From a virus, in IMG/VR virus record IMGVR_UViG_3300027985_001729, positions 11,304 to 75,303 of that record: a DNA stretch of 64,000 bases. One strand, written 5' to 3'. This document shows, piece after piece, positions 19,001-48,693 of this stretch; position 1 is the first letter of the stretch, and the number at the start of each line of letters is the position of its first letter. The notes beneath the pieces are model-generated. The model was given only the letters and a program-made list of their open reading frames with translations. It was not told the DNA's origin and searched no databases. The translations under genes and the position numbers were made by a program.

Positions 19001-19229
19001 CGCTCGCTGAGTAGCTGTAGATCGAGTTGCCTTCGTCGGTCCATCCAACAGGGCATGGAAACTCGACGGACGAGTAGAACCCGTAGATGCGCCACGTCTG
19101 CGATCGCCACCCGCTCGAGTTCTCGGCGGCGAGCGTGATGGTGTCACCATTCGCCACCGTGAGGCCGCCGCTCGTGAGCGGCCCGGCGTTCACGGACACC
19201 AAGATCTTCGCGTAGGGGGTTGTGGGCAT
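16044..19229 (-). CDS. Tail fibre / receptor-binding protein
   Basis: 1061 aa, A/G/T/S-rich; KITNVAPPVAGTDATNKDYVD neck motif; GDRIL..Q....ENNGIWVV..GWARATDAD fibre motif. Confidence 0.85.
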   Translation of the reverse strand: MPTTPYAKILVSVNAGPLTSGGLTVANGDTITLAAENSSGWRSQTWRIYGFYSSVEFPCPVGWTDEGNSIYSYSASASPPSFTLPAAPSFGKWLLDLEVNQRLLDGEVSDQLYDNTSALSIVGAGGTIDVAYLEDVQFDVRKYTQALRQDLRGLDAAIAGGVGGGVSLGAGLPTTLDAGAAAVGAAATASPLDHKHAINVGVPVSVGAANAEGVALELARRDHVHDHGAQTDPTQHAVATTTDAGFMSSADKTKLDGLSAVTVDEGTVRAALALSAGDVSVNNQKITNVAPPVAGTDATNKDYVDGAVLGAGVAKVLARGVATENHALVGAYAADGIVYADGDRILETAQAAGENNGIWVVNTGGGWARATDADASSEVSPGLLVAVAEGTRYASSVWALTTIGPITLGTTPLTFVQVGAHVVLDAATTYSIPQRDANGLIRADRAAVGALTSDAVATFEASSTTAAAAGVPQHSPPLIQTAKAWDTTSLVSRDASWATQARATDGDPVTIQFVWASKAEPAASYIDRMSLSDSGFLSVSGAVQAGYFAATATAAASGTLRGVADVSAVTVYGPTSGTDIDLIKLTSADVIEIGTADATSFLLTANGGGNLVFRINATQALDVNEAHARFTPGFVRSNTSTVAGAAPPSPGTYIGFAAGRGADGANYTDQAAIVWDEGNSVWRLAYDTAGLGTSLGPALPLLASYFGAPTGTISSSGLLRAPNLSVLAGARNFADTGDVVIAVGADDGLYLGETTYTALTQVAAKSGGWFAVNVNSAEVLRVAEVLTSFKYGGQGTTLTLTNGVSVVNSTPAADGAQQYSPPLMIEGRGWATGVAASQTVLWALQTQPVQGASPSGNLVFASSVNGAAATVQLKITSDGVVTITNATTVPSSTAASTADLYVDSGTTKIRSSNGVVTTLAPVGASGGTTKTLDKITGNVSTTDGSTVTLVAFTPDANTVTNVVLEVLMREAATGNVYVTMRQVGVKRGAGAPSTLSTDSGAPWLFSRVSGGGIATPMQDDDFSTTPAPTVTIVGNEVRFQVTGTVAKNLDWFGVATISSFG

Positions 19230-34956: not shown

Positions 34957-35418
34957 TCAGAACCCGCTCCCGTTTTGGTTGCCGTTGGGGTCATCGATCG
35001 TTGTGTATGGTCCGTTGTTGAAGATGAGCCCACCGGAGTTCTTCGGGGCCACGGCAGGGGATGGTTGATCGGGGAGGTTCCTGAGGCCAGCCCTGATCAT
35101 CATCATCCTGTCCTTCCCGCGCTTCCACCTTTCGGCACGCGTCTCCTCCCCGAAAGTCCTGACGTACTCCGGGTGTCTCTCGAAGCAGAAGGATATGGCG
35201 AAGTCTTTCGCCGCTCGTTTCAGGAGCCGGTCCGTGTCTTCCTTCGGCTCGACGTAGATCCCGACGAGGAACGAATCTACCTCTGCCTCTGCATCGTCGA
35301 TGACGTCGGAGATCGCGAGCTCGTTGAGCACGCCCGAGTTGTCGTCGTCGAAGATCTCCTTGATGGTTTGGAGCGACAGGGCGCGGATGAGGATGTCCCT
35401 GTCGATGTACTTGCCCAT
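34957..35418 (-). CDS. Head-tail adaptor (Mu gp36/DUF1320-like)
   Basis: YIDRDIL...VIDDAEAEVDSFL..Y motif. Confidence 0.8.
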   Translation of the reverse strand: MGKYIDRDILIRALSLQTIKEIFDDDNSGVLNELAISDVIDDAEAEVDSFLVGIYVEPKEDTDRLLKRAAKDFAISFCFERHPEYVRTFGEETRAERWKRGKDRMMMIRAGLRNLPDQPSPAVAPKNSGGLIFNNGPYTTIDDPNGNQNGSGF

Positions 35419-35456
35419 GGTGATCTTCGACCTTCGTCAGGATGATGGTCCGTGAG

Positions 35457-35482
35457 GGTGGAGCCCCGTGAGGGGCTCCACC
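35457..35482 (-). other. Stem-loop just after the capsid gene (stabiliser or attenuator)
   Basis: GGTGGAGCCCC-GTGA-GGGGCTCCACC, without a U-tract. Confidence 0.6.
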
Positions 35483-35485
35483 TGC

Positions 35486-36649
35486 TCACTGGAAGGCGCC
35501 CTTGATTCGCCCAGTCACGAACGGCGACACGAACTGCTCCGCATCGTTGTGCGCGACGACGACCTGCATCGATCCGCGCGGGCCCTCGTAAGGGTTGTAG
35601 AACTGGCGGACAAGGAAGCCTCCCTGGACCGTCGGCTGCTGCGTCTGCCCCCACGAACTGGGCAGTGCCTGGTCATTGCCAGCGTTCCACCGGAAGGTCT
35701 TTGCCGACGTAACGGTCATGCGCCCGACCTGGTTGCCGTTCGGCGGTCGGTGGGTCAGCACCACGTCACCGGCCCAGATGTATGGGTACGTGTCGGTCGC
35801 CATGTCCCAGATCTTGGCTTCGCACACATGGATGGTGGGCAGATTGAGAAAGGCGGCGAACGCGGCCCTGAGGTCTGGCGTGGGAAGGCCAGGGACGGCC
35901 TGCTTGAAGCCGGTAAAGCGCTGGACGGCAGGGTTCTCCACCATGGCATTCCAGGTATCGAGGGACATGAACATGTCCGTCGCTGGAGCGAGCATCTTTT
36001 CGCGGACTCGGTTGATGTTCGCGACGGGGTCGCTGTTGGACCCACCATTCCACCTGAGCAGTGGATCCACGGTGAGATCGAGCAGCGTAGGCGTGTATGT
36101 GTAATTCGCGTCCGTGTACAGCATCGTCTTGACGCGCTGCTCTCGATTCAGCAAGAGCTTGTTCAACACGAGCTCCATGTGGTCGAACATCAGATTGAGC
36201 GGAGAATCCTGGTTCGCGAGCACTTCGATGGGGATGTTCGCGCCGAGGGCGTACGGATACGTCTGATACCGAGAGTTCGTCAGGGTGACGCCGATCTTGT
36301 TGTACGAGGCTCCGGGCGCGACGATTGTCGCGTCGATGGGCGCGAATGCGTCCTTGGGCGAGAACTCGAAGTATCGATCGGACTCCTTGTCCACCGGAAC
36401 AGGTGGCGCCGCGAGGTCCGCCTTGTACTCTGCGTTCGAGTATTTGACGGCGAAGTTCGCGAGGATCCGCTCGACATGAACGTCGGCAACACCAACGTCC
36501 ATGCGCACGAGTTGCTCCTGCGCAGCGTGTCCACCCATCAAGGTGACGAGTTGCCCGTGGCCGTTGTCGGCGAGCATCACGTTCCTGGCGGGGTCGAAAT
36601 AGCCGATCTTCTGTCCCGTTTCCGGGTTGGTGATGGGGATCATGTTCAT
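35486..36649 (-). CDS. Major capsid protein (HK97 fold)
   Basis: DVHVERILANFAVKY..Y.ADLAAPPVPVDKESDRY, WNGGSNSDPVANI; strong RBS; position. Confidence 0.88.
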   Translation of the reverse strand: MNMIPITNPETGQKIGYFDPARNVMLADNGHGQLVTLMGGHAAQEQLVRMDVGVADVHVERILANFAVKYSNAEYKADLAAPPVPVDKESDRYFEFSPKDAFAPIDATIVAPGASYNKIGVTLTNSRYQTYPYALGANIPIEVLANQDSPLNLMFDHMELVLNKLLLNREQRVKTMLYTDANYTYTPTLLDLTVDPLLRWNGGSNSDPVANINRVREKMLAPATDMFMSLDTWNAMVENPAVQRFTGFKQAVPGLPTPDLRAAFAAFLNLPTIHVCEAKIWDMATDTYPYIWAGDVVLTHRPPNGNQVGRMTVTSAKTFRWNAGNDQALPSSWGQTQQPTVQGGFLVRQFYNPYEGPRGSMQVVVAHNDAEQFVSPFVTGRIKGAFQ

Positions 36650-36736
36650 GTTGTGGTCCTTGAGAGTGGATGTGGTTCGCTGAGCGATTACAGGGTTGGG
36701 CGTGGGTTGCGATGGTGCGTGTGAGGATCGAGGTGA

Positions 36737-37150
36737 TCAGGTGGGGGTCGACACAACGATGTCGACCTGGAGCAGTTCCCCGTCGGCGGCCGTGTGGATG
36801 GCCTGCCCGAGCTGCTCCACGCCGACGCCTTTGGCCTTGACGCGGCCGAGCTTGCCGATGGTGTCCGAGACCTGCACGTACCCACCCGCGGTGATCGCGC
36901 CGTCGGCGGTAACCTCTGCCCTACCACGCCGCATGATGCTGCCGACCTTGCCAACGTAAATGGTCGTGCGCGTCACCCCTGCCGTCCCGGTGATGCCGCC
37001 ACCAGCGGTGGGAAGCGTGATCCCGGGAGGCGTGTCGCCAGAGGCGGGGTTCGCAGGGTCGAAGATCACCGCGGTTCCGGCGGTGATGTCGGTCAACCCT
37101 GTGTTTTTGACGGTCATGAGGTCCGTCAGCGTGTTCCCAGTCGTGTTCAT
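36737..37150 (-). CDS. Capsid decoration/cement protein (DUF2190-like)
   Basis: G.AEVTADGAITAG..V.....G....LG.AIHTAADGE motif before the capsid gene. Confidence 0.8.
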   Translation of the reverse strand: MNTTGNTLTDLMTVKNTGLTDITAGTAVIFDPANPASGDTPPGITLPTAGGGITGTAGVTRTTIYVGKVGSIMRRGRAEVTADGAITAGGYVQVSDTIGKLGRVKAKGVGVEQLGQAIHTAADGELLQVDIVVSTPT

Positions 37151-37257
37151 GGAATGCTCCCGTCGCCGAGCAGGTCATGCCCACGCGGCTGAAAGACTCT
37201 TGTTTTTGTTTGGAAAGGAGACAGGTGGGCGTGGAGAGATGAGCGGAGACCCCTGGA

Positions 37258-40200
37258 TCAGTTCAGGCCGTAGTCGGCCATCGTGGCGGTACCGCGCGCG
37301 ATCTTGTACGCCGCGTTGGACGCATCACGCAGCGACAGCCCCTTTTCCTTCTCGAGTCGGTTGCTGAGCGCGACGACATCCACGTTATGCGTGGCCCCGA
37401 ACCCGTTCGGCGCGTCCACGGGCTGGCGCATCGGCACGGTCCCATTTGCACCGTTGGCGCCGCCTTGGACACCCGACCGAGACTCGGTGTACCGCCGGAG
37501 CAGGTCGGCCTGATTCGCGGGGACGAGCGGGTACATCTTATCGAACTGCTCGGGATCGTTCTTCGCGATGACCAACATGCCGCGCTTGTCCTCGTCGGTC
37601 AGGCGCTTCACGTCCTTGTAGGTGAGGAAGGCGGTGTCGACCTTCCTCGCGAGATCCGACTCGTCGCGGAGCCGAATCTGCTCGGCGAGCTTCGCGTTCT
37701 CTGCCTTGGCATTGTCCGCAGCAACGCGCGCGTCCTTGAGCTGAAGCTCGAGCATGGCGTTGCGGTCCTCGGCGTCCTTGAGGCGCACCCCCATGGCGGC
37801 CTTGTCGTCGCCGAGACGCTTCACCTCGGCGTTGAGCTTGTCGTTGAGCGCCACGAGCGCGGCGGGGTCGGTGTCGGTCATGTTCACGTTGTTCGTCATG
37901 GTCGTCGTGGCTCCGTTGTTGTCGCTGGAGTTGGCGTGGTATTCGTCTTCGTGATCGATGATCGCTTCGTCGATCATCTCCTCGATCGCGTCGAGCAGGT
38001 CGCCGAAGGTCATGTGCGCCGGGACATTCATCAGGGCGCGGAGGTCGGTCATGTACGGCTTGAGGTCGAAGCCGAGCGCCACCATATTTGGGTCGGCGTT
38101 TTCGGCGTGTTCACGCAGTCTTCCAACCTCAGCTTTGCACTCGGCGGCCGTGGCGGATTCGCCAAGCCTGAGAGCGCTTCGCAGGGCGGGAAAGAAGGTG
38201 TTCATGTTCGCGAGACGTTGATTGAGCATGCTGCCTCCAGGACGGTCCTTCGCCGCGACGGGCAGCATGCCGTCCAAAAACGGATTGTTGGTCAGGGCGC
38301 CGCTCGTCATGCGCGCCCCAATCGGCTGACCCGTCACGCGGTCCTTCGACCCGAACCTGATCGCCGGAGAGAAGAATCGATACTTGCCTTCTCGGATGTA
38401 GGTGCGCGCGGGCTCCATCCACCGGACGAGCCCCCAGAGCCCATCTGCACCCCTGTTGTCGAGCTCGAGAATCCAGCCCTGCGCCGGAGCCCCCAGCACC
38501 GGGATGGAGCCGTTCGCGCATGGCTCCTCGGTGGCGTGTTCAAAGTCGATCGGGATCCGCTGGTTGACTGTCTTGCGGAAGTTGTCGACGATCTGCTCGA
38601 AGATCCCAGGGTTGAGGTCGAATGGGCCAGCGGGATGACCCCGGAAAGTCCCCACCTTGGCGACCTGAATCCAGCGGGGCCCATCGTCCGTCTCGCCATC
38701 GCTCGCCGCCATACCCTTCGCGCTGGCGAGAAGGCGCTCTGCTTCTTCGACGAGACCCTTGTCGCGGAGGGCTTTGACCTGCTCGTTCAGCTTGGTCTGG
38801 TCACATGCCGGAGCCTTCGCGGTTCCGAGGGTGAGCTCGACGCATTCGCCCATGAGGATGGGGTCCTCGCCATCCGCCATGGCGTGACGGATCTCGAAGC
38901 TTGGACCCCCAGGGAGACCAATGCGCATGTGCAGACCTCGAGGCCGAGGCCCCATAGGGCGCCCTTCGAACGGTGCACCCATGGCTCCTTCCTTCGCCTC
39001 GACCGGCTTCCCCTCGTGCTTGATGCCGAACTTCTTGTACGCCTTGAGGATGTTGCCCTTGACCCGGTCGTAGGTGGCCTTCGACATCGAGCTCTTGTTC
39101 TGCTCCAGGCGTGCCATCGCGTTGCGAGCGTGAGCTGCGTCGTGGATCGGGTAAGCCCTCTGCTCTGGCCACGCGAATGCGTTCTTGGGCAGCGCTTTGC
39201 GCTGCTTGGTCTTGAGCGGCGCCATGGTGCGCTTGCCCTGCCCCTGGTTATTTTGCTTGTCGGTCGGGAGAGCATTCAACCCAAGGGTGGCGAGCGATCG
39301 CTGAACGGCGTTGTTGAGATCTGCTTCTGTGTTGCTCATGGTGACCCTGGTTGTTGCGAGGTCTGGACGGTCAAAGGAGGTCGGTGAGCGGGATAGGGTG
39401 GCGATGTCACGAGCGGGCCAGAACAACGACCGCCCGTCCTTCGCGACGAAGGCGATCCAATCCTTTTGAGGTGCCTCGATCCACCCGAGCCAACCACCAA
39501 CGTCATCGGGGTTCGCGTAGGTCCCGGAGAGCTCCGCGGAGAGGGCAGGGTGGTTCTCTGGCATCCCACCTGCGCGGCAGAGCACAGCCCAGCCGTGTAC
39601 CGCGACAAAGCTCGACGAGGACTCTCGAGCGTGCATGACGTGGGCGGGCTCTCCACGGTCAGAGGCCTTCTTCTCGTCGGCGGCGTCCATCTGGCGCACG
39701 AGCTTCTCCGACCACGCGCGTCCAGGATCACCGCCCCATAGCGCCCATGCGATGCGCCCGTTCGAGGGAAAGCCATCCTCAGCCGGAGACCACCCCTTGC
39801 CCTTCTTGTCCACCTCGTGGCGTGGGAAGTAGCGCGAGATGTGCCGTGCCTTGTCGGGGGAAACTCGAGGCGACCCGACCAGGGCACGAGCGGTGGCAAC
39901 ACCAACCTCGGTTCCTCCGCGCCCGTGCTCCTTCCGCCAGTCGAGGCCGCGCTTGGCTTCCTCAGCGACGCCCTTGGGAACGCTGAAGTCGATGTGGTCG
40001 TATCGACCATCGGCCAAGCGCCTGGCCTGCGAGGCGGCAAGGTAGTGGTCGTAGGCATCCAAGACCGCCTGCATGACGGAGGACCCAGATAGCCCGACGG
40101 TGGTGACGCCTTCGGCGACTGATTTGATCGAGCACCGCCACGACATCGAAGAGCTAGGTCCCTGGCCGATGAGACGCCCATTCGCAGCGTGAGCCATGGC

Positions 40201-41046
40201 CTGCTGGTCGAGGTCGAGGATGGCTCTCTCTGGCGCCCGCTCTGCACACGTCCGGTGCATGCGATAGAAAAGGCTGTACCCGCAGGCTGGACCTTCGATC
40301 GCCATCAAGCTGACCGTGCGCACATCCGTCTCCGTCCACGGGACGCCACAGAGGGGGCACGTGTTGTTTGTCGGCTCGGTTGGATCCGAGTTGGGCCCCG
40401 TGAAGTAGCCGACGGACTCGGGTGGAAGTGTCGGACCACCAGACCATTCACCATGATCAGACATCGAGACGATCCCAGGATCGATGCCGAGCAGGGCCCG
40501 GATGAAGCCTACTGGGATGTCGATCATGTCCCCGAAGCGCTCCTGTGGGATGTGCGCGCAGTAGCAGGCCAGCGCGTCGACATCCGAGTCGAACCCGAGC
40601 ATCACCTTGAGCTCGTCGAACGTCCCATCCTTCTTGAGCTGCTTGATGAGGTACGCCCGCTCGGCGCGCGGGTTCGGGCCCACGAATACGTCGAGCTCTT
40701 CACCGTCGCCGCCATCGGTCTTGCGGATGAACCCGTAGTCGACGAGGTAGGTGCGCGTGGCGACCACGTTGCCCGCGTCGTCGAGGAGCTCCTGCACGAA
40801 CCCTTTGGGGCGGTCGATGGCCACCTGAATCCCAGAGACTTCGACCACCTTGGCGATCTTCGCTGGCTTCTTCTTCGTCCGCGGGTCGGCGAGACACATC
40901 GGGATGTCGAGCATCGACATGGCAGCGCCTGCCGGGTAGACGGGCTTGACACGTTTTCCGCCTGGCTTCCGACGACCCCTCGAAACCTGGATAGGTCCTT
41001 CCACGTGGACGTCGGCGACGCCAAGGTCGAGAGATCGCGCTGTCAT
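37258..41046 (-). CDS. Multidomain prohead protease/scaffold polyprotein (Mu gpI-like protease with N-terminal cargo domains)
   Basis: Protease motifs WIQV..G.F.GH, IPIDFEHA, AQGWI, GKYRFFSP, ALTNNPFL; C-terminal coiled coil; N-terminal DYGFIRKTDGGDGEELDVFVG..FDELKVMLGF; AGGA RBS before MTARS. Confidence 0.9.
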   Translation of the reverse strand: MTARSLDLGVADVHVEGPIQVSRGRRKPGGKRVKPVYPAGAAMSMLDIPMCLADPRTKKKPAKIAKVVEVSGIQVAIDRPKGFVQELLDDAGNVVATRTYLVDYGFIRKTDGGDGEELDVFVGPNPRAERAYLIKQLKKDGTFDELKVMLGFDSDVDALACYCAHIPQERFGDMIDIPVGFIRALLGIDPGIVSMSDHGEWSGGPTLPPESVGYFTGPNSDPTEPTNNTCPLCGVPWTETDVRTVSLMAIEGPACGYSLFYRMHRTCAERAPERAILDLDQQAMAHAANGRLIGQGPSSSMSWRCSIKSVAEGVTTVGLSGSSVMQAVLDAYDHYLAASQARRLADGRYDHIDFSVPKGVAEEAKRGLDWRKEHGRGGTEVGVATARALVGSPRVSPDKARHISRYFPRHEVDKKGKGWSPAEDGFPSNGRIAWALWGGDPGRAWSEKLVRQMDAADEKKASDRGEPAHVMHARESSSSFVAVHGWAVLCRAGGMPENHPALSAELSGTYANPDDVGGWLGWIEAPQKDWIAFVAKDGRSLFWPARDIATLSRSPTSFDRPDLATTRVTMSNTEADLNNAVQRSLATLGLNALPTDKQNNQGQGKRTMAPLKTKQRKALPKNAFAWPEQRAYPIHDAAHARNAMARLEQNKSSMSKATYDRVKGNILKAYKKFGIKHEGKPVEAKEGAMGAPFEGRPMGPRPRGLHMRIGLPGGPSFEIRHAMADGEDPILMGECVELTLGTAKAPACDQTKLNEQVKALRDKGLVEEAERLLASAKGMAASDGETDDGPRWIQVAKVGTFRGHPAGPFDLNPGIFEQIVDNFRKTVNQRIPIDFEHATEEPCANGSIPVLGAPAQGWILELDNRGADGLWGLVRWMEPARTYIREGKYRFFSPAIRFGSKDRVTGQPIGARMTSGALTNNPFLDGMLPVAAKDRPGGSMLNQRLANMNTFFPALRSALRLGESATAAECKAEVGRLREHAENADPNMVALGFDLKPYMTDLRALMNVPAHMTFGDLLDAIEEMIDEAIIDHEDEYHANSSDNNGATTTMTNNVNMTDTDPAALVALNDKLNAEVKRLGDDKAAMGVRLKDAEDRNAMLELQLKDARVAADNAKAENAKLAEQIRLRDESDLARKVDTAFLTYKDVKRLTDEDKRGMLVIAKNDPEQFDKMYPLVPANQADLLRRYTESRSGVQGGANGANGTVPMRQPVDAPNGFGATHNVDVVALSNRLEKEKGLSLRDASNAAYKIARGTATMADYGLN

Positions 41047-41056
41047 GGTGTCCTGC

Positions 41057-41425
41057 TCAGGGGATGTTGTGGCCAATGGCGATCGCTACCGCCCGAACGA
41101 CGGAGAGGAAGAGCGCATCTTTTGCGCGCTGCTCAGGAGGCAGCGATCGGTACGGGACCATGCACGGGTGGGTCTTCGCGGCGATGTCCTTGACCGCCCC
41201 ATATGCCCACCCAGTGCGTTCTTTTTCAGCCAGCCACTCGGCGTGGCTCTGCTCTGGCGTGTTCCCAGCCAGAGCACCAGCGACACCCTTCCGCGCGCTC
41301 TCCTTCTGCCAGTCGGGGGCGTCGTCCCATGCCGGCTGCGAAGTGTCCCCGATCGCCAAGCAGTAGGCGCGGTTCGCCTCGTGCGCCGCTCGAGCGCAGG
41401 TCTCAATGACGGCCTGCGGCGTCAT
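41057..41425 (-). CDS. RyR-domain protein
   Basis: SHAEWLAEKERTGWAYGAVKD...KTHPCMVPYRSLPPEQRAKD. Confidence 0.85.
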   Translation of the reverse strand: MTPQAVIETCARAAHEANRAYCLAIGDTSQPAWDDAPDWQKESARKGVAGALAGNTPEQSHAEWLAEKERTGWAYGAVKDIAAKTHPCMVPYRSLPPEQRAKDALFLSVVRAVAIAIGHNIP

Positions 41426-42069
41426 GCTGCGGTGGCGACCTCGTAGGTGATCACGTAGTCGTTGGTGCCGTTCGGCGCGGTGTTCGGCGTGTAACCGCCG
41501 TTCGGCGCATTGACCGTGGGGAGAGAGAAAGTGCCATCGGTCGCCGGCATGACCCCATTTACCTTCTCCCCCAGGTAGTGCGCGTACCCGGCTCGAGAGG
41601 CGATCGGGGACCCGAGCCCGATCACGTCGCCTGTGCCAACCGACATCGTTGCCCCCGTCCCATCGCCGGCCGTGAACGCGATCGAGGTGATGCTCGCGAA
41701 GCACTTCACTCCAGCCGCCACGGTCGCCGTCTGGGCCACAGTGATGGTCTCTGTGATCACCGACCCGTTGACGTCGTACCCAGTGACGACAGCCTCCGCC
41801 GGGGCATCCGCAGGCGTCAGACCCGCCGTGGTGATCGTGATGTTGCGTGGCGGGCTGATGGCGCCGTCGCCGATCGTCCCGTCGAGATCGGCCACGCCGT
41901 AAGTCACCGCAGTCACCTGGCTGGCCTGGGCGGTCAGGATCGCCACCGCATCAGCCGCGGCTACGTTCGCCATCTCGTCCACAGTACCCACCAGCAGGTC
42001 GGCCTGAAGGAGGTGCTTGGCGATCGAGTAGGGGTAGTTCGAGACGTTGGGGGAAAAGCGGGTCGTCAT
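41422..42069 (-). CDS. Beta-rich virion structural protein
   Basis: PRNITIT...VTGYDVNGSVITETIT...GVKCFASITSI; ATGA overlaps on both sides. Confidence 0.75.
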   Translation of the reverse strand: MTTRFSPNVSNYPYSIAKHLLQADLLVGTVDEMANVAAADAVAILTAQASQVTAVTYGVADLDGTIGDGAISPPRNITITTAGLTPADAPAEAVVTGYDVNGSVITETITVAQTATVAAGVKCFASITSIAFTAGDGTGATMSVGTGDVIGLGSPIASRAGYAHYLGEKVNGVMPATDGTFSLPTVNAPNGGYTPNTAPNGTNDYVITYEVATAA

Positions 42070-43805
42070 GGCAAGTCCTCATCCTTCGGCGGCTTCGCGC
42101 CTTTTCGTGTCTTCGCAGGCGGCGACGCGGGGACAGCCTTGCCGCCCTCCTCGCCCACATCCTCGTTTTGCTTCGATCTTTCTCCCTCACCAATGGGCGC
42201 CCCCGTCGCCGCAGGAGCAGGAGCCCCAACATCGACAGGCGTGGTTGGTGGCACAGGCTTGGCGAACTTTGCGATCAGCCCGGCCATGAACCCGGCGACG
42301 TCGCTCTCCGTCATTCTGGCAAGAGCGCTCTTCATCGCGGGGGTAATGTTGAGCCCAACAGCCTCAGCCAGAGCGACGGCAAGGCTTTGGAAATCCGTCT
42401 CGCCGGATCGGCCATGCAGAGCCTCGAGCAGCATCAGCTCAGCAGGCTTGAGCGGGGCAACGCGGATGCTTTCTTCGTCCTTGGGGTTGACCAGCCGCAG
42501 GCCGAGCTCGCCAGCGAGCCATGCCCCATCTACCGGCAGGCCAATGCCCGCCGCATCGATCGCGCGCTTGAGGAGCGCTTCTGGGCTCACGTGCTCAACG
42601 TGGACGATGATGTTGGGGCAGAGGTGCTCCTCGCCAGGAAAGTTCAGATGAGTGAGCCACCAGATGAGATCCGTCTTGATGGTGTCCGCGAAGTTGGCAG
42701 CGTCGTAGCGCGCATTGCGGATGCTCCCACGCTCGTGAACCTCACCAAGGCTTCGAGCCCCACGGTCGCCCGCATCGGTGGTGAGGGTGCCCCCGAGCAC
42801 GGCCTTGCTCATCTCGTCGTTGCAAAGACGGATCAGCTCAGCGTGGTTCATCCCCCCGGACGAACCCTTCATCGCCGGGCCATCGAGCTCGACCTTTATC
42901 GAGTCGGGCAGGGTGGCTCCGGCAAGAGCTCCCGACCCGAGCGCCTTCAGGGCAAGGTCGGCAGCGTCGATGTCCGGCTGCGTCGCGACGCGTGGGTTGG
43001 GGTTATTGGGGATCTTGGTGTTGTAGTAGGCGAGGGCCCAGGGCTTTGAAAACCGCTCGACGAACTGCGACGCCCCGCGCATGGCCATGTTTTTGATGGC
43101 CATGTACCAGGCGATCTCTCTGCCAACGCCTTCGCGCGTCGTGTAGTTGCCTCGCACACCTGGCTCGAAGACGATGAACTTCCCTGGGTGATCGGCGACG
43201 CTCAGCCCGAAGACGTTCATGGTCGGCTGCTCGGCCATCCCAAGCCCAGGCTGGACCATGCCCTGGTCCCAGATCCGCAAATCCCACCGCCCCTGGTCCG
43301 GGTAGGCAAGCCGTCGGCTGTGAATGAAACCGAACCCCGCCACGTGCCAGCCGTCGACATCGCGGGTCCAGTAGGTCTCTAGCGCGGTGATCCCGTAGAA
43401 GACGCCCCAGAGCAGACCGTAGAAGGCCTTCGTCTTCTTGGGGATCTCGTCCCACCTCTGCTGCACGACGTCGCGGATGTACGCCGCCCTTTGCGCCGCG
43501 TCTGCGTCTCCTTCGGGTGTCTTCGCTGCGACGATATCAACGCGCCCTCCAGCCACCGCCAGCACGCGCTGGGAGACGATGGCGAAGGCGTGCGGGTCCT
43601 TCTCGATGAGCTCGTCGAGAGCATCGACGTATTGCTGGCGGTACCCGCTCTGGCAGAGCCGGTAGACCGCCGACAGATATTGAAGGGTAAGGTTGGACCC
43701 GAGGAGGGTCGGGTACCTATCGATGAGCGGGATCGGCGCCAGGACGCGCTCGCCAGCATTGTCGTTGCCGCTCTGCGCGACGAACGGGTTCTTTTTGCTG
43801 GCCAT
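42066..43805 (-). CDS. Portal protein (Mu gp29/DUF935-like)
   Basis: EKDPH, FVERFSKPW, CNDEMSKAVLGGTLTT..G.RSLGEVHE. Confidence 0.93.
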   Translation of the reverse strand: MASKKNPFVAQSGNDNAGERVLAPIPLIDRYPTLLGSNLTLQYLSAVYRLCQSGYRQQYVDALDELIEKDPHAFAIVSQRVLAVAGGRVDIVAAKTPEGDADAAQRAAYIRDVVQQRWDEIPKKTKAFYGLLWGVFYGITALETYWTRDVDGWHVAGFGFIHSRRLAYPDQGRWDLRIWDQGMVQPGLGMAEQPTMNVFGLSVADHPGKFIVFEPGVRGNYTTREGVGREIAWYMAIKNMAMRGASQFVERFSKPWALAYYNTKIPNNPNPRVATQPDIDAADLALKALGSGALAGATLPDSIKVELDGPAMKGSSGGMNHAELIRLCNDEMSKAVLGGTLTTDAGDRGARSLGEVHERGSIRNARYDAANFADTIKTDLIWWLTHLNFPGEEHLCPNIIVHVEHVSPEALLKRAIDAAGIGLPVDGAWLAGELGLRLVNPKDEESIRVAPLKPAELMLLEALHGRSGETDFQSLAVALAEAVGLNITPAMKSALARMTESDVAGFMAGLIAKFAKPVPPTTPVDVGAPAPAATGAPIGEGERSKQNEDVGEEGGKAVPASPPAKTRKGAKPPKDEDLP

Positions 43806-43841
43806 GGAGGCAGGTTATCGACGGCCCGTTGGCCGCAGCCA

Positions 43842-44408
43842 TCAGCCCTGCGGCTGGGCCTGGCCCCGGTCGGACGCGAGGATGGGGGACACAGCGAACT
43901 GATCGACGCAGCACGTGGACGCGATCAGCTTCCAGCCTTCCTTCTCCCCATCCACGAGGATGTTGTCGAGAATGACCGAGGTCTCCTTGTCCCCGAGCTC
44001 TTGGGCCATCGCACGTGTCGCGCGGAGGTGCGTCCTCCACTGCGCCATCCGGTCGATCAGGACCCTCGTGTGGTCGGCGGCAGAAACGAGCCCAGGCGGG
44101 TACGGGGCGAGCTTTGAATTGCAGAGGATGCCCTCGAGCGTGCTCTCCGAGAGCCACCCAAGCTGGGACACTCGCTCAGCCAGCGTGTCCGCAGCCCCGT
44201 CGAGAAATCCGTAGAGCTCACCGAACCGCTCGTGCATCTCCTCGAATGTAGGACCACGAACGTTGCGATGTGCGGTCTTCGCAGCGTGCGACAAAGCCTC
44301 CGTACAGGCGAGCGAGCCATTGAGCTCGGCGACGATGCGCATCTTCGTCTCGGCTGGCAGGGCGCAGAGAGACTTGAACAGCCTGGCAGGATCTTGTTCC
44401 AGAAGCAT
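43842..44408 (-). CDS. Dps/ferritin-like protein
   Basis: AHRNVRGPTFEEMHERFGELY......DTLAERVSQLG, matching the Dps ferroxidase signature; start uncertain. Confidence 0.8.
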   Translation of the reverse strand: MLLEQDPARLFKSLCALPAETKMRIVAELNGSLACTEALSHAAKTAHRNVRGPTFEEMHERFGELYGFLDGAADTLAERVSQLGWLSESTLEGILCNSKLAPYPPGLVSAADHTRVLIDRMAQWRTHLRATRAMAQELGDKETSVILDNILVDGEKEGWKLIASTCCVDQFAVSPILASDRGQAQPQG

Positions 44409-44475
44409 GGTCCGTGGGGGAGTTGTAGGGATGTGGGCGTCGCTCGGAGGCACGAGCGGAGGATATGGGAAAGGT

Positions 44476-44504
44476 ATGATATTAAACGTCACCGAAAAGA
44501 GCAA
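44476..44504 (-). promoter_or_regulatory. Candidate late promoter
   Basis: TTGCTC-17 nt-TATCAT in an AT-rich gap upstream of dps/portal. Confidence 0.45.
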
Positions 44505-44537: not shown

Positions 44538-44993
44538 TTATGGCTTGATCGATAGGCGGGGTGCGTTTGGGCATGATGGCCTGCCGCACACCTGCCACGG
44601 AATATCGTTTCGCTGAACCCAGTCTCGTAGCGCTGTCGCATAAATCCAAGGTCGATTCGCGCGCATCCCGTGGACGGGTAGGCGGTCTCTCTTGGCCGTG
44701 GCGAGGTACCTCGTCCGACGCCTGTCGGTGTGCCCCAGCATGGCCGTGATCGCGTCCCACCCTTCTACCCGCGGCAGGTCGCTCGTCCTTGGATCTGCCT
44801 TGCGTCGCTCTTTCCAGTCGGTTGCATAATCGCTTCGAATCCACAGCGTGCCCCTCCCTTTGCCCCTGCCCAAGCGGACGCGGACGGGGAGAGGATCCTC
44901 CCCGAGTCGCGCGTAGAAATCGATCATGCTTTCCGAGCATCCAAGAAAGTGAGCGATCGCCTTTTGCCCAATGAGCTTTTGAACCTCGTTCAA
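44538..44993 (-). CDS. Tandem excisionase/MerR-like HTH protein
   Basis: Two copies of G(Q/W)xAIxxxLG...LPV...WI....DW; TTGA overlap. Confidence 0.65.
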   Translation of the reverse strand: MNEVQKLIGQKAIAHFLGCSESMIDFYARLGEDPLPVRVRLGRGKGRGTLWIRSDYATDWKERRKADPRTSDLPRVEGWDAITAMLGHTDRRRTRYLATAKRDRLPVHGMRANRPWIYATALRDWVQRNDIPWQVCGRPSCPNAPRLSIKP

Positions 44994-46222
44994 GAGAACA
45001 CCTCGAGCGGGTCGATGATCTCCACGTGTTCTTGCGTTGGCCGCTGACGAGCGGCTCCTGGCTTTTGCTGGCGCGGCTCGATGAGTCCTCGCTCGAGGAG
45101 AGCGGAGGTGATGGCCGCTCGAGCGCGCTTGAGCATGATCTTGGCCTCGCGCTCGGTAGCTGGGACGCCTTGATGCCCCATGCTTCGGAGGCGCTCGAGC
45201 GCCTCGGGGATGGTCATGCGCTCGAAGAATGGCTCCATGGTGCCGTTCTTCGCCCGACGAGCTGCTTTCCGCTGTGGAGCTCCCACGTCGCACAACCTCA
45301 CGAGGTCAAGCTCCACAGCGGAAAGCGGGCGCCCCAAGTCTGTGACCACACCTCGAGCACTGACCATCCGCCCGACGCGGGCAGCCTCGATCGCTGCTCG
45401 CGCATCGAGCGATCTGAGGAGAGCCTCCTCGCCGCGCGCGGAAGAGGACCCGGAGCGAGATGGGGAGACAGCCATGCGCCCATCAAGCCGGACACCGCTC
45501 GGAAGTGAGTTCGTTGCGCGGGCGCTCGTCCTGAAGGTAGGCGCAACCCCGAGGAGCGCCTGGTCCACGCTGAAGGCTTTGTCGATAGCGGCGCGGTGTC
45601 CGGCGAATGAGGCACGCCTCCGCTTGGCTCCGCCGCAGACCCGGCACGTGCGCTCCTCCCCGACGTCATCGGAAAGAACGCCCTCCCCAGAGCATGCGGC
45701 GCAGTCCTTGTCTTCGTCGCGCATCTCGAAGGTGACCACGAGCTCGTCGCGCCCCTCGAGACGAACCATCAGGTTCCAGAGCATGCCAAGGAGGGTTCCA
45801 AGCAGGAGCCGCTCCGCATCCCCCTGCGGAAGGCTCCTGCCTCCCCTCGGTTTCACGATGGAGATGTCGCCACCGTTGAGGAAGCGGTAGATGTCCTCGA
45901 CACGAGCGACACCACGGCTCTCGATGGTATCTCGAAGCGATGCGATCCGCTCGGTTCGCGCACGGATGTCGAGCTCAAGCTCGGCGTCCTGGTTTCTGGA
46001 CCACAGGGCGATGCCGCCGCCATCGGGGAACGAGTTTCCAGCGGATGGGTCTCGCTCCCACAACGGACGTGGTGTCACGGGCGGGATCGTCGCTTCGCAG
46101 GCTGGGCAGTAGAGAGCGCCGTCCCCATGCCACACAGCCTTGGAGGACAGGCAGAACGGGCAGCGAGGTGGAGGGGATGTTTTTGGTGTGGAGCGTCGAA
46201 AAGTAGGGGAGGAGTCCCGCAC
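44990..46222 (-). CDS. Zn-finger transcription regulator candidate (Q-like position)
   Basis: CPFC/CPAC and CAAC/CRVC pairs, C-terminal sigma-4-like helices; GGAGG before GTG 46222; start may be upstream. Confidence 0.55.
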   Translation of the reverse strand: MRDSSPTFRRSTPKTSPPPRCPFCLSSKAVWHGDGALYCPACEATIPPVTPRPLWERDPSAGNSFPDGGGIALWSRNQDAELELDIRARTERIASLRDTIESRGVARVEDIYRFLNGGDISIVKPRGGRSLPQGDAERLLLGTLLGMLWNLMVRLEGRDELVVTFEMRDEDKDCAACSGEGVLSDDVGEERTCRVCGGAKRRRASFAGHRAAIDKAFSVDQALLGVAPTFRTSARATNSLPSGVRLDGRMAVSPSRSGSSSARGEEALLRSLDARAAIEAARVGRMVSARGVVTDLGRPLSAVELDLVRLCDVGAPQRKAARRAKNGTMEPFFERMTIPEALERLRSMGHQGVPATEREAKIMLKRARAAITSALLERGLIEPRQQKPGAARQRPTQEHVEIIDPLEVFS

Positions 46223-46337
46223 GAAGCCTCCGGCCTGGACGAGACCCGCTCGTCCGTGGTAGGTATGCCGCGTACTCCTCGTGGGCGTGGGGTGCCGAGG
46301 GCTGGCGCGGACAAGGCGACCAGCCCTTCTTTTTCGC

Positions 46338-47732
46338 TCAACCCGTGGTGGGTACGGTTTCATCCGGAGAAACGGATGACTGCCAACGAACGAGACGCGC
46401 CAGCGCTTCGATAACCGACTCCCCATCGGCGGGCTTCACCAGTGCCACCACCGCGGCGAGCTGGGCGCGGGCCATGGCCACCTCACGGCGTTGGGCGTCG
46501 GCCTCTTCCTGGTAGTGGGTCACCTGCTTGCGTAGGTCCTTGGCGATCACCTTGTGCGCGCTGGCCTGGGCCCTGAGCTTGGTAGCGATCTCGGCCGGGT
46601 TGTTCCCGCGTCTCCTCGATGCCAAGTCGTCGAGGAGGTACTCCACCGTGGTCACGATGTGAGCGTAGGTCGGCCTGTCCGACAGTTTCGGGAACCTATC
46701 CAAGAGCTTCTTGTCGATGCGCTGAAGGAGAGGTGCAACGTTCGCGGCGGGATCGGTGCACGGGGAACCTGACCCGTGCAGGATCTCGAGCTCGACCATG
46801 CGCGACACCACTTGCTCGATGCACGTCTCGATCGTTGCCGAAGTGATCTCCCTGAAGCCTGCCTTGCGCAGGGTGGCCGCAATGCGATCGCGGAACAAGC
46901 GCCACGTCGTGAGCTCCTCGAACAGCACTTCGGTACAAGCGGCGATTTCATCTGGCCTTGATCTTGATGATATCAGCGGGAATTGCTGAGCGATCTTCCA
47001 ATCGATCCGAGCTAGCAGCGAGGATAGCTCTGCCGACTTGCCGATGAGGCATACTGCCGTATCGACCATGTTGTCGCCGGCGATAGTGGCATGGTGCTTG
47101 GCAACAGCCATCCCGACGCGGCCCACATCTTCTGCCAGCGACATTTTATGCTCACGTAGTTCTACGACCTCCTTGCGAAGAGAATCGATGAGCTTTGCGT
47201 CGTTGTCCCTCGCTTCCGCCATTGCATCGAATGACGCAACGTTCGACCTGTTCTTTTCCTCGAGTTCCTTCACTCGAGCCTCGGACAACGACAGCGCATC
47301 ATCGATCTTCTTGACCTTCTCCGTATCCGTGGCAATCCGCCCGTCGATTGAGTGAAGGCGCTCTAGTTCCGACTCGATGAAACGAAGCTCGACGTCTTTC
47401 GCACCTTCGGCCAAGAGAGAGTCGGCAAACATCTGCTTGATACGGTCCAGCAGGTTCCTGCTCCAGCCGCGGTCCACCGGCCACGCAGCCGAGGCGTTGA
47501 CATCCTTCGCGTGAGCGACGAGCTTTCCGTAGTGGGCCCTTATCCGCTGCAATGAGGCCAGCCCGAGCGATTCACCGCTATCATTCGGTTCAGCCGAGAA
47601 TCGGTAGAGTGAGGATCGAAGCTCGTCTAGAACGAGGTCCGTTTCACCATCGGCTGGCTTTTCATTGCCTGCCTTGTCCACGAGAGCCCTGACGACCCTC
47701 AGCCCTTCATTGCTCAGAAAAAGTACCTTCAT
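46338..47732 (-). CDS. Coiled-coil protein with internal repeats
   Basis: GGAGG RBS at MKVLF; heptads. Confidence 0.7.
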   Translation of the reverse strand: MKVLFLSNEGLRVVRALVDKAGNEKPADGETDLVLDELRSSLYRFSAEPNDSGESLGLASLQRIRAHYGKLVAHAKDVNASAAWPVDRGWSRNLLDRIKQMFADSLLAEGAKDVELRFIESELERLHSIDGRIATDTEKVKKIDDALSLSEARVKELEEKNRSNVASFDAMAEARDNDAKLIDSLRKEVVELREHKMSLAEDVGRVGMAVAKHHATIAGDNMVDTAVCLIGKSAELSSLLARIDWKIAQQFPLISSRSRPDEIAACTEVLFEELTTWRLFRDRIAATLRKAGFREITSATIETCIEQVVSRMVELEILHGSGSPCTDPAANVAPLLQRIDKKLLDRFPKLSDRPTYAHIVTTVEYLLDDLASRRRGNNPAEIATKLRAQASAHKVIAKDLRKQVTHYQEEADAQRREVAMARAQLAAVVALVKPADGESVIEALARLVRWQSSVSPDETVPTTG

Positions 47733-47790
47733 CGATTTCCTCCCAGAGAGGCATGGGGTGGCGAGTTGCACCCCATGCCTCTGACCTTCG

Positions 47791-48693
47791 TCACACCCGC
47801 GCGGAACTACCATGCTTGCCGCGCCCACGCCCTCCGCCGCCCGAGCTCCGCCCGGACAACTCCTTCGCCGCATCGAGCTCGGCAGTGAGCGAGGCGACGA
47901 CCTGCACCACCGACCCCTTCGGGAGGGAGGCGAACACGCGCTTGATTGGCTCTGTTGAGTTGGTCGGCTGAACGACGAGCTCCCCTCCGAACACAGAGAC
48001 GCACGCATCGGGGTACCTCACCTTGAGCGCTGCCTCGATGGCATCGACCGTGTAAGGAAGGAGCACCCGCTCGGCGTCGGAGATGACAGCATCGATCGTC
48101 ATCTCCTGCCAGTTCGAAGGAGCCACGTGCGTCTCGGTGCCCCACGAGAGATGCATGTACACGTTGTTCCCGACGATCGATGCGCTGGCGCTGGCACCAT
48201 GGCGCTCTGCCCAGGCATCCTTCACCTTCTCGAAGTTGCGGCCGCGCTCTGCCCGAGCGACGAACTCCTCGATGGCCTTGAACTCGATGAGGACGCACGT
48301 GCGGTGCATGGGGGACTCATCGCTCATGAACGTGTCCCCCTGAGCCACCACAGGCTCAGGTTTCAGGATGAGCGGCCGGAGCAAGCCAACGATGGCGTTC
48401 GCGACCATCGGGCCGTAGAAGGGGCGCCTGACGTCGGCGCTGAGGTGCTCCCAGGTGACGGGCTCGTCGTGGGTGTACGCCGCGAAGGAGGTCGCGCTCG
48501 GGTCCTTCTTCTTTGCGGCCAAGGCGAGCTCCGGGATCGACATGATCGCCACGTCGACATCATCCGGGTTGATGGTGGGGAGAGGTCTTTTCGCAAAGTC
48601 GCGGGCTTCCGTCGCGGCCTTGGTAGCCGCGCGGTGCGTCTCGATGAAGATGTCGGTAAGCATGATCTTGTTCTCTTGGTGGTTGTTGGTCAT
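47791..48693 (-). CDS. Hypothetical protein
   Basis: Long GC3-rich ORF; ATGA overlap. Confidence 0.7.
   Translation of the reverse strand: MTNNHQENKIMLTDIFIETHRAATKAATEARDFAKRPLPTINPDDVDVAIMSIPELALAAKKKDPSATSFAAYTHDEPVTWEHLSADVRRPFYGPMVANAIVGLLRPLILKPEPVVAQGDTFMSDESPMHRTCVLIEFKAIEEFVARAERGRNFEKVKDAWAERHGASASASIVGNNVYMHLSWGTETHVAPSNWQEMTIDAVISDAERVLLPYTVDAIEAALKVRYPDACVSVFGGELVVQPTNSTEPIKRVFASLPKGSVVQVVASLTAELDAAKELSGRSSGGGGRGRGKHGSSARV

What the first reader, a model, noticed from the sequence alone, without database searches (positions are those of the whole stretch)
37258..41046. Giant head polyprotein: cargo domains fused ahead of the Mu-type prohead protease/scaffold
Seen: one uninterrupted ~1260-aa ORF between portal and capsid. 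In order (ORF-track numbering) it carries a pyrophosphatase-like domain (aa ~75-200, DYGFIRKTDGGDGEELDVFVG..DELKVMLGF), a CPLC..H..C Zn module (~240-280), a GGTEVG..RIAWALWGGD domain (~360-465), a Trp-rich GGWLGWIE..WIAFV module (~515-560), a RKALP..AFA.P..R.YPIHDAAHARNA domain (~620-690), then the protease (from ~800) and a coiled-coil scaffold. Established: Mu gpI alone is far shorter, and pyrophosphatase-like domains occur in phage polyvalent/MuF-associated proteins thought to be virion-delivered. No MuF/gp30 gene was recognised here. Inference: the protease acts as a carrier that loads several effectors into the head and frees them by proteolysis.
Basis: partly seen in the sequence, partly recalled or inferred. 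Interest (0 to 1): 0.88.

Follow-up and report, generated by a model that had tools for sequence, protein, structure and literature searches.

The report
Phage head protease carrying enzyme cargo
An uncultured 75-kb phage joins a pyrophosphatase and four other small modules to the front of its head protease and scaffold in one 1,262-residue protein, probably so that they are built into the capsid; this design was described in 2017, so it is a good new example, not a new principle.

Summary
The ORF is real: window 37258-41046, minus strand, 1,262 aa from the ATG, between a Mu-type portal and the major capsid gene of a complete 75,303-bp myovirus genome from a metagenome.

It holds, in order:
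- a 10-residue N-terminal peptide
- an InPase pyrophosphatase domain
- a C2HC zinc module
- a 115-residue all-helical domain ("H115")
- a Trp-rich module
- DUF6582
- an intact Mu gpI-type serine protease
- a coiled-coil scaffold tail

An independent re-assembly of the source reads spans the gene without any difference, so it is not an artefact.

Relatives carry MuF, NUDIX, InPase or H115 in the same place. The same InPase, zinc, H115 and Trp modules also sit in front of an unrelated XkdF-type head protease, and InPase and H115 also sit on portals. This supports the carrier idea.

The idea is not new. Iyer et al. 2017 noted that assemblin-like peptidases always lie at the C-termini of polyvalent proteins, and this scan has met similar cargo polyproteins in other genomes.

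What I add:
- The peptide [M/L]-D-L-G-x-x-D-V-H is shared clade-wide by the capsid protein's propeptide border and the protease protein. It is a candidate cut or docking signal.
- Two cargo modules are confidently folded and have no clear match among solved structures.

No cut sites between the cargo modules were found, and packaging was not shown.

The parts
37258..41046 (-). Whole polyprotein gene, 1,262 aa from the ATG; stop codon at 37258-37260
   Evidence: database copy P0002, 1,262 aa; coding signal throughout; independent re-assembly, 0 differences
40999..41028 (-). N-terminal peptide D-L-G-V-A-D-V-H-V-E. It is one copy of the clade-wide motif [M/L]-D-L-G-x-x-D-V-H, a candidate protease recognition or docking signal
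   Evidence: There are only two copies in the genome; the other is in the capsid protein
40525..40851 (-). InPase domain (type I pyrophosphatase-like, polyvalent-protein clade), aa 76-184
   Evidence: PF18823, E 2.4e-25; Pa193 portal, E 3.3e-15; D124, D129, D154, E155, K157 conserved
40177..40440 (-). C2HC zinc module, aa 213-300 (C240, C243, H274, C277). The family consists mostly of standalone 80-130-aa proteins and has no Pfam model
   Evidence: model pLDDT 94.7; no clear fold match; paired with InPase in P0243 and P0244
39652..40020 (-). 'H115' all-helical domain, aa 353-475 (motifs R-G-G-T-x-V-G, R-H-E-V-D-K, R-I-A-W-A-L-W-G-G). A widespread phage head-associated domain of unknown function
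   Evidence: phrog_2859; pLDDT 93.7; no PDB match; fused to proteases, portals, Dps, ParB, HAD in BFVD
39307..39558 (-). Trp-rich module, aa ~507-590. Among the 120 listed homologues it was found only in two other proteins, both of which also carry InPase
   Evidence: no hits
39019..39225 (-). DUF6582, aa 618-686. The most constant partner just upstream of this protease clade
   Evidence: phrog_16160; 19 of 37 N-terminal extensions
38230..38700 (-). Mu gpI-type (assemblin-like) prohead serine protease core, aa 793-949, with invariant D844, E846, H847 and S903-P904
38227..38229 (-). In-frame ATG (M950) preceded by GGAGG. A possible nested start for a scaffold-only product, as with Mu gpZ
   Evidence: same position with AGGAG in L008 and L009; consensus Met; GGAGG precedes only 3 of 198 internal ATGs, but ribosome-binding sites are weak in this phage
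37261..38229 (-). Scaffold part, aa 950-1272: conserved middle region plus an Ala/Asp/Leu/Lys-rich coiled-coil-like tail
   Evidence: (homologous in nearly all relatives). No other scaffold gene was found between portal and capsid gene
36470..36499 (-). Second copy of the motif (D-V-G-V-A-D-V-H-V-E) in the major capsid protein, after a 50-residue N-terminal extension
   Evidence: D51, G53, D56, V57, H58 are among 23 invariant capsid columns
35486..36649 (-). Major capsid protein gene (phrog_1005; weak Phage_cap_E match)
42066..43805 (-). Mu-type portal gene (PF06074)
   Evidence: (E 2e-55)

Best explanation
**What it is.** This is a phage-type polyvalent protein whose anchor is the prohead protease-scaffold.

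**Shown.**
- One translated 1,262-residue chain carries a cargo block: an InPase with its acidic active-site residues intact, a C2HC zinc module, the H115 helical domain, a Trp-rich module and DUF6582.
- An intact Mu gpI-type Ser/His protease and a coiled-coil scaffold tail follow the cargo.
- The gene sits between the portal and capsid genes.

**Inferred.**
- The scaffold tail co-assembles with the capsid protein and so draws the whole chain into the procapsid.
- The protease then digests the scaffold, and perhaps linkers, so that the cargo stays inside and leaves with the DNA at infection.
- A nested start at M950 may supply cargo-free scaffold in bulk, so that only a minority of copies carry cargo. 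Mu I/Z and herpesvirus UL26/UL26.5 work this way.
- InPase and NUDIX alternate at this position among relatives. The cargo therefore probably hydrolyses a nucleotide or pyrophosphate compound early in infection.
- The peptide [M/L]-D-L-G-x-x-D-V-H, shared with the border of the capsid propeptide, is most likely this protease clade's recognition signal, either a cut site or a docking peptide.
For: - **Real single ORF:**
- **Domain calls:** 5, 6, 17.
- **Active-site residues kept:** InPase D124, D129, D154, E155; protease H847, S903 invariant in 59 sequences and in 27 full-length relatives.
- **Head-gene context and phage type:**
- **The cargo position is modular in relatives:** MuF, NUDIX, InPase, H115, DUF6582 and an intein.
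- **Same cargo on other carriers:** an unrelated XkdF protease (P0243, P0061), portals, proteases, Dps and ParB, and the Pa193 virion portal.
- **Motif:** almost all of the ~85 best motif hits among 7,938 ORFs of 80 related loci fall in the capsid protein or the protease protein. The residue after His tends to match within a phage, Q with Q or V with V/I. The motif residues are invariant in the capsid alignment. A related S-x-x-[D/S]-V-H-[V/I]-P lies directly after the protease core in some relatives.
- **Literature:** assemblin-like peptidases are always C-terminal in polyvalent proteins and are expected to process them (PMC5512222).
Against: - No virion proteomics or N-terminal data exist for this uncultured clade; the nearest cultured capsid relatives are ~25% identical.
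- Only one strong motif copy occurs in the protein, and it lies ahead of all cargo. Release of the individual modules is therefore unsupported, and a cut there would remove only six residues.
- The functions of H115, the zinc module, the Trp module and DUF6582 are unknown.
- Ribosome-binding sites are weak in this phage: 9 of 28 gene starts against 32 of 198 internal ATGs have a 4-mer match. The nested start is therefore only a possibility.
Confidence: 0.6

Rival explanations
1. The N-terminal modules are assembly or packaging parts, not host-directed effectors. They would replace the missing MuF head protein and act inside the head, for example by binding DNA, the portal or the shell. The shared peptide would then be a structural contact copied from the capsid N-arm.
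For: - In relatives the same protein starts with MuF, a head-assembly protein, and this genome has no MuF.
- H115 is fused almost only to head-internal proteins.
- The motif sits at the extreme N-terminus in cargo-free forms (L031-L033, L049), where a cut would release nothing.
- The motif residues are invariant in the capsid protein itself.
Against: - InPase keeps its acidic catalytic residues and alternates with NUDIX, another nucleotide pyrophosphohydrolase. This points to an enzymatic role.
- H115 is 60-70% identical across phages whose head proteins are not related. That is odd for a part that must fit each phage's own shell.
- H115 and the zinc module also exist as standalone small proteins.
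Confidence: 0.25
2. The full-length chain is rarely or never made. The working products start at internal sites such as M699 or M950, and the upstream part is a decaying fusion.
For: ATGs preceded by ribosome-binding-like sequences lie at aa 699 and aa 950. A nested scaffold start is known for Mu I/Z (my knowledge).
Against: - The upstream 780 codons have no stop and keep a coding signal.
- They encode four domain families with their conserved residues intact.
- They have no stop of their own, so any translation from the ATG runs on into the protease.
- Relatives show the same fused layout.
Confidence: 0.05
3. The fusion is an assembly or sequencing artefact, that is, a missed stop, a frameshift or a chimeric join.
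For: The genome comes from a metagenome, and the only full-length copies come from what is probably one sample.
Against: - A separate assembler gives one contig across 36400-42200 at ~18x with 0 differences and no joints.
- Short contigs from an unrelated aquaculture study match scattered parts at 95-100%.
- Multi-domain relatives of 700-1,260 aa are common.
- The genome has 80-bp terminal repeats and is rated complete.
Confidence: 0.02

Closest known systems
Phage-type polyvalent proteins with a C-terminal assemblin-like peptidase (Iyer, Burroughs, Anand, de Souza, Aravind 2017, PMC5512222)
   Same: Many unrelated domains lie in one chain. An InPase of the polyvalent-protein clade is present. 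The gene lies among head genes of a portal-terminase phage, and the peptidase lies after all the cargo. The same predicted logic applies: packaged, then processed by the head peptidase.
   Different: The peptidase is followed by ~320 residues of scaffold. The zinc, H115 and Trp modules match no Pfam model, so I could not link them to any named polyvalent-protein domain. There is no MPTase, MuF or other hub domain.
Phage Mu gpI/gpZ prohead protease and scaffold (PF10123)
   Same: The protease family is the same, with conserved His and Ser. The scaffold is encoded in the same frame downstream, the gene lies between portal and capsid genes, and a nested start is possible.
   Different: Mu gpI is about 360 residues with no cargo, and Mu has a separate MuF (gp30). 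This phage is not transposable, and its capsid protein is of another family. JBD30, a Mu-like phage, has no copy of the shared motif.
'Capsid maturation protease and MuF-like fusion protein' of cluster B1 mycobacteriophages (PMC9584337, PMC9584339), and the MuF-H115-DUF6582-protease forms found here
   Same: A head protein or cargo is fused in front of the maturation protease in one gene.
   Different: Here MuF is absent. An InPase-zinc pair and a Trp module are present instead.
Herpesvirus UL26/UL26.5 (assemblin-scaffold with a nested scaffold gene)
   Same: The protease fold class is the same. The protease reaches the procapsid as an N-terminal extension of the scaffold, while the abundant scaffold comes from a nested in-frame start.
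   Different: It carries no extra cargo domains. The nested start here is only a candidate.
T4 internal proteins IPI-III and Alt with capsid-targeting leaders cut by gp21
   Same: Proteins are loaded into the procapsid, trimmed by the prohead protease and injected with the DNA.
   Different: T4 cargo is targeted by a short removable leader on separate proteins. It is not covalently fused to the protease-scaffold.
Portal-InPase fusions (BcepF1 gp124 in Iyer 2017; Pa193 gp19, PDB 9b41)
   Same: The InPase domain is the same (E 3.3e-15) and is attached to a head-internal virion protein.
   Different: The carrier is the portal, at 12 copies, with the domain at the C-terminus. That part is unresolved in the Pa193 map.

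Membership tests
Phage-type polyvalent protein (Iyer et al. 2017) | Two to fifteen distinct globular domains in one polypeptide | tested here: met
   Seven modules were recognised: InPase, C2HC zinc, H115, Trp, DUF6582, protease and scaffold
Phage-type polyvalent protein (Iyer et al. 2017) | Contains domains of the polyvalent repertoire (here InPase) | tested here: met
   PF18823 at E 2.4e-25. The loss of the beta-hairpin that marks this clade was not checked
Phage-type polyvalent protein (Iyer et al. 2017) | Encoded among virion or head genes of a portal-terminase phage | tested here: met
   Portal, capsid, cement-like, terminase, sheath and baseplate genes are present
Phage-type polyvalent protein (Iyer et al. 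2017) | Assemblin-like peptidase, when present, lies at the C-terminal end | tested here: met
   The protease follows all cargo, but a ~320-residue scaffold region follows the protease
Phage-type polyvalent protein (Iyer et al. 2017) | Packaged in the virion and delivered to the host | not testable with these tools
   Needs virion proteomics. There is only indirect support from fusions to portals
Mu gpI-type prohead protease (PF10123, assemblin-like) | Profile match above the curated cut-off | tested here: met
   107.9 bits against a cut-off of 25.2; phrog_328 at E 1.3e-37
Mu gpI-type prohead protease (PF10123, assemblin-like) | Conserved catalytic His and Ser | tested here: met
   H847 (in D-x-E-H) and S903 (in F-S-P-A-I-R-F) are invariant in 59 and in 27 sequences. 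Calling them catalytic rests on analogy; the third residue was not assigned
Mu gpI-type prohead protease (PF10123, assemblin-like) | Scaffold encoded in the same frame with a nested start (Mu gpZ) | tested here: inconclusive
   M950 is preceded by GGAGG, and L008 and L009 show the same at the same position. Ribosome-binding sites discriminate poorly in this phage
Type I inorganic pyrophosphatase-like (InPase) | Four conserved acidic metal-binding residues | tested here: met
   D124, D129, D154 and E155, plus K157 and Y114, are conserved in at least 85% of 9 aligned domains
Type I inorganic pyrophosphatase-like (InPase) | Hydrolysis of pyrophosphate or a nucleotide substrate | not testable with these tools
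   Needs an enzyme assay
MuF / Mu gp30 head protein (PF04233) | Profile match in this protein or anywhere in the genome | tested here: not met
   There is no match at E<=1 in six frames. A profile built from relatives' MuF parts gives a best E of 0.08

The most novel reading that the evidence does not exclude
The peptide [M/L]-D-L-G-x-x-D-V-H is the hitherto unknown recognition signal of an uncultured clade of Mu-like prohead proteases. It would mark both the capsid propeptide border and the protease-scaffold chain. The chain would use it to load a nucleotide-pyrophosphohydrolase kit (InPase or NUDIX, with a C2HC zinc module, a Trp module and the widespread H115 domain). The phage would inject this kit to destroy a host nucleotide signal or pool at the first moment of infection. 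H115 and the zinc module would then be new effector families.
Probability: 0.2. Interest if true: 0.65.

Novelty: new member of a known kind. Interest (0 to 1): 0.42.

Why it matters
**A clean natural example of a protein-loading mechanism.** It shows how phages could load proteins into capsids. The cargo is hung on the protease-scaffold, a part that is certain to enter every procapsid and is destroyed afterwards.

**The layout is modular.** The comparative survey found the same cargo on two unrelated protease families and on portals, and InPase alternating with NUDIX. This offers a rule for finding virion-delivered proteins in metagenomes.

**It yields three testable objects:**
- a conserved 9-residue signal shared with the capsid propeptide
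- the H115 domain, which is very widespread, strongly conserved, confidently folded and without a clear match among solved structures
- a C2HC zinc module that travels with InPase

If the cargo proves to be injected and to degrade nucleotide signals, it would be a pre-made counter-defence that acts before any phage gene is expressed.

Tried and rejected
**Modules that stayed unidentified**
- Pfam at E<=5 on the single segments found nothing for the zinc, H115 or Trp modules, the linker or the scaffold tail. NCBIfam found nothing.
- PDB sequence searches with the H115 profile, the zinc profile and DUF6582 found nothing significant.
- Fold searches of the H115 model gave a best Foldseek E of 0.64 and a best VIA Z of 5.1, which is helical-bundle noise.
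- Fold searches of the zinc model gave a best match to ribosomal protein eS21 at E 0.06 and TM 0.44, and a best VIA Z of 4.2. Neither model has a clear match.
- ESM Atlas gave only unnamed viral clusters for H115 and nothing for the Trp module.
- tblastn of the zinc and Trp segments against cultured phages, and scans of IMG/VR, found no relatives.

**Other searches without result**
- Megablast of 35000-44000 against phage records found no match.
- Complex prediction of the protease core with the capsid N-terminal region gave no verdict (score 0.01, controls not run). This is evidence neither for nor against binding.
- The JBD30 paper gives no cut site for a Mu-like protease, and JBD30's protease and capsid protein lack the motif.

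**Leads I dropped**
- A motif-like P-S-D-A-H-I-P-T ahead of the Dps-like gene probably lies upstream of that gene's real ATG, so I treat it as chance.
It is too short to score.
- I considered whether the zinc module is a degenerate MuF, because both contain an H-x-x-C element. I rejected this: the clade MuF profile does not match it, and the module has its own family.


Full report
**1.

The minus strand carries one open frame from 41076 (TTG) or 41046 (ATG) to the stop at 37258. A public protein collection holds the 1,262-residue ATG form (P0002). Relatives start 3-8 residues before the same N-terminal peptide, so the ATG is the likely start. Residue numbers below follow the TTG form; subtract 10 for the ATG form.

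G+C at the third codon position is 0.64-0.96 in this frame in every 50-codon block.

The window is bases 11304-75303 of a complete 75,303-bp IMG/VR virus record with 80-bp direct terminal repeats. Logan's separate re-assembly of the source run covers 36400-42200 in one contig with no difference, indel or joint. That run is a hydrothermal-vent metagenome, filed twice, at about 18x. Short contigs from an unrelated aquaculture study match scattered parts at 95-100%. An artefact is therefore very unlikely.

**2. Anatomy**

| Module | Residues | Evidence |
|---|---|---|
| InPase, PF18823 | 76-184 | E 2.4e-25 |
| C2HC zinc module | 213-300 | |
| H115 helical domain, phrog_2859 | 353-475 | |
| Trp-rich module | ~507-590 | |
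| DUF6582 | 630-686 | E 6.5e-7 |
| Mu-like_Pro, PF10123 | 818-1078 | E 1e-30 |
| phrog_328 head maturation protease | 793-1126 | E 1.3e-37 |

- **InPase.** It keeps D124, D129, D154, E155, K157 and Y114, which are conserved across nine aligned domains. This fits the four acidic metal ligands described for this clade (PMC5512222).
- **Protease.** It has invariant D844-x-E846-H847 and S903-P904 in 59 domains and in 27 full-length relatives, so it looks active.
- **Scaffold.** The last ~320 residues are homologous in nearly all relatives and end in an Ala/Asp/Leu/Lys-rich, coiled-coil-like tail. No other scaffold gene was found between portal and capsid gene.
- **Zinc module.** It found 79 hits among 1.84 billion representatives, mostly standalone proteins of 80-130 residues. 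C240, C243, H274 and C277 are invariant. It matches no Pfam family. The model is confident (pLDDT 94.7) but has no clear structural match.
- **H115.** It has 523 standalone relatives and no Pfam family. A six-helix model has pLDDT 93.7 and no clear PDB match. Its invariant residues include R386, R419-H420, P437-S438, W444 and W447.
- **Trp module.** It matches only P0008 and P0061 among the 120 listed homologues, and both also carry InPase.

**3. Surroundings**

- The gene order on the minus strand is: Dps-like gene, Mu-type portal (42066-43805), an unassigned 215-residue gene, a small RyR-domain gene, the polyprotein, a cement-like gene, the major capsid gene (35486-36649), then neck, sheath, tape-measure and baseplate genes.
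- The large terminase lies at 53682-55334.
- The phage is thus a terminal-repeat myovirus. Only its portal and protease are of 'Mu type'.
- No MuF was found, either with PF04233 in six frames or with a profile built from relatives' MuF parts.

**4. Relatives show a modular cargo slot**

- **Frequency of long forms.** Long forms are common among proteins of 699-2,226 residues. In 69 distinct IMG/VR relatives, 31 have at least 150 residues and 10 have at least 300 residues ahead of the protease core, counted from the first Met.
- **Usual layout.** MuF (~200 aa), then the motif, H115, DUF6582, protease and scaffold.
- **Other forms.** Some carry InPase (P0008, P0019, P0022, P0026, P0030), some NUDIX (P0046, P0058-P0060, and 6 of 37 IMG/VR extensions), and one has an intein inside MuF (P0014).
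- **An unrelated protease carrier.** The same cargo sits in front of an XkdF/S78_2 protease. P0243 is InPase-zinc-XkdF, and P0061 is H115-InPase-Trp-XkdF. P0244 is zinc-InPase alone.
- **Other carriers.** In BFVD, H115 is fused to prohead proteases, three portal types, Dps, ParB and HAD proteins. InPase sits on the C-terminal part of the Pa193 portal, which is present in virions but unresolved in the map.
- **Reading.** This is what one expects if any head-internal protein can serve as a carrier. The InPase/NUDIX alternation points to a nucleotide or pyrophosphate substrate; that step is inference.

**5. A shared peptide**

I tested this.

- These are the only two copies in the genome.
- A profile of the motif was scanned over 7,938 ORFs of 80 related loci. 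Almost all of the ~85 best hits fall in either the capsid protein or the protease protein.
- In capsid proteins the motif ends a variable N-terminal extension of 45-230 residues. That extension is coding (third-position G+C 0.84), and the motif precedes A-A-L-x-N-Y.
- D51, G53, D56, V57 and H58 are among only 23 invariant capsid columns.
- In protease proteins the motif always lies upstream of the protease, but its place among the cargo varies. In cargo-free forms it lies at residues 3-16.
- The residue after His tends to match between the two proteins of one phage.
- Some relatives have a related S-x-x-[D/S]-V-H-[V/I]-P directly after the protease core.

I read the motif as this protease clade's recognition signal, either a cut site after the M/L or a docking peptide. 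That is inference.

In the window's protein it is the only strong copy, and it lies ahead of all cargo. I therefore found no evidence that the modules are cut apart.

**6. Nested start**

- M950, right after the protease core, is preceded by GGAGG.
- L008 and L009 have AGGAG plus ATG at the same aligned place, and the family consensus has Met there.
- GGAGG precedes only 3 of 198 internal ATGs, but ribosome-binding sites are weak in this phage overall.
- A Mu gpZ-like scaffold product is therefore possible, not shown. It would explain how a bulky cargo chain could be a minority species. That is inference by analogy with Mu I/Z and herpesvirus UL26/UL26.5, from my own knowledge.

**7. Comparison with what is known**

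- Iyer et al. 2017 defined polyvalent proteins and listed InPase as specific to the phage type.
- 'Capsid maturation protease and MuF-like fusion protein' is a routine annotation in cluster B1 mycobacteriophages.
- This scan has already reported several cargo polyproteins, and the 'AWALWGG' (H115) domain, in other genomes.
- The principle is therefore known. This is a rich new member with two unnamed cargo families and a clade-specific signal.

**8. Verdict**

- Novelty: new member of a known kind.
- Interest: 0.42.

Noticed in passing
window 39652-40020 (-): The H115 domain is 60-70% identical to copies in phages whose portals, proteases and capsids are unrelated. It also occurs in 1,500-1,900-residue proteins, several of which carry a Dps/ferritin domain (P0094, P0105, P0110, P0115, P0118). 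Such conservation suggests a conserved ligand or target, not a fit to each phage's shell.
   Followed up: partly
window 41057-41704 (-): The RyR-domain gene probably starts at the ATG at 41425 (122 aa), directly after the stop of the upstream 215-aa gene, and not at the GTG at 41704. It ends 8 bases before the polyprotein's ATG. Like InPase and Dps, RyR is a small module found here next to head genes.
   Followed up: partly
window 43842-44504 (-): A Dps/ferritin-like gene (PF00210, E 3.4e-13) lies directly upstream of the portal. In other phages Dps is fused to H115, so it may belong to the same cargo set. Its real start is probably the ATG about 33 codons inside the TTG-started ORF.
   Followed up: partly
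window 44538-50915 (-): Three of the four large ORFs between the terminase and the portal (44990-46426, 46338-48008, 48690-50915) were scanned with Pfam, and the first two also with PHROGs. The only match was a weak one to DUF16 for 46338-48008 (E 9.4e-4, below cut-off). The 44538-45293 ORF, scanned with Pfam only, also had none. The terminase is about 10 kb from the portal, which is an unusual spacing.
   Followed up: no
L059, L061, L064, L068-L073 (after the protease core): A variant of the shared motif, S-x-x-[D/S]-V-H-[V/I]-P, lies right at the protease/scaffold border in these relatives. Self-release of the protease would be expected at that border.
   Followed up: partly
P0014 (database relative, 1,261 aa): An intein (Hint_2 plus Intein_splicing) is inserted in the MuF part of a MuF-DUF6582-protease chain.
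   Followed up: no
L084 (Pseudomonas phage JBD30, 2835-4595): In JBD30 the anti-CRISPR gene acrF1 and its regulator lie directly upstream of the Mu-like protease gene. The slot ahead of this protease is thus a known landing place for counter-defence genes, there as separate genes and here fused.
   Followed up: no
window 37295-41138, runs X3 and X4: Short, low-depth contigs from an aquaculture metagenome match parts of the gene at 95-100%. A close relative of this hydrothermal-vent phage seems to occur in a very different habitat. The share is small and should be treated as a lead.
   Followed up: partly
window 16044-19229 (-): A 1,061-residue protein in the tail-fibre region matches both 'head decoration' (phrog_2647) and tail-fibre families over aa 227-468.
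   Followed up: no
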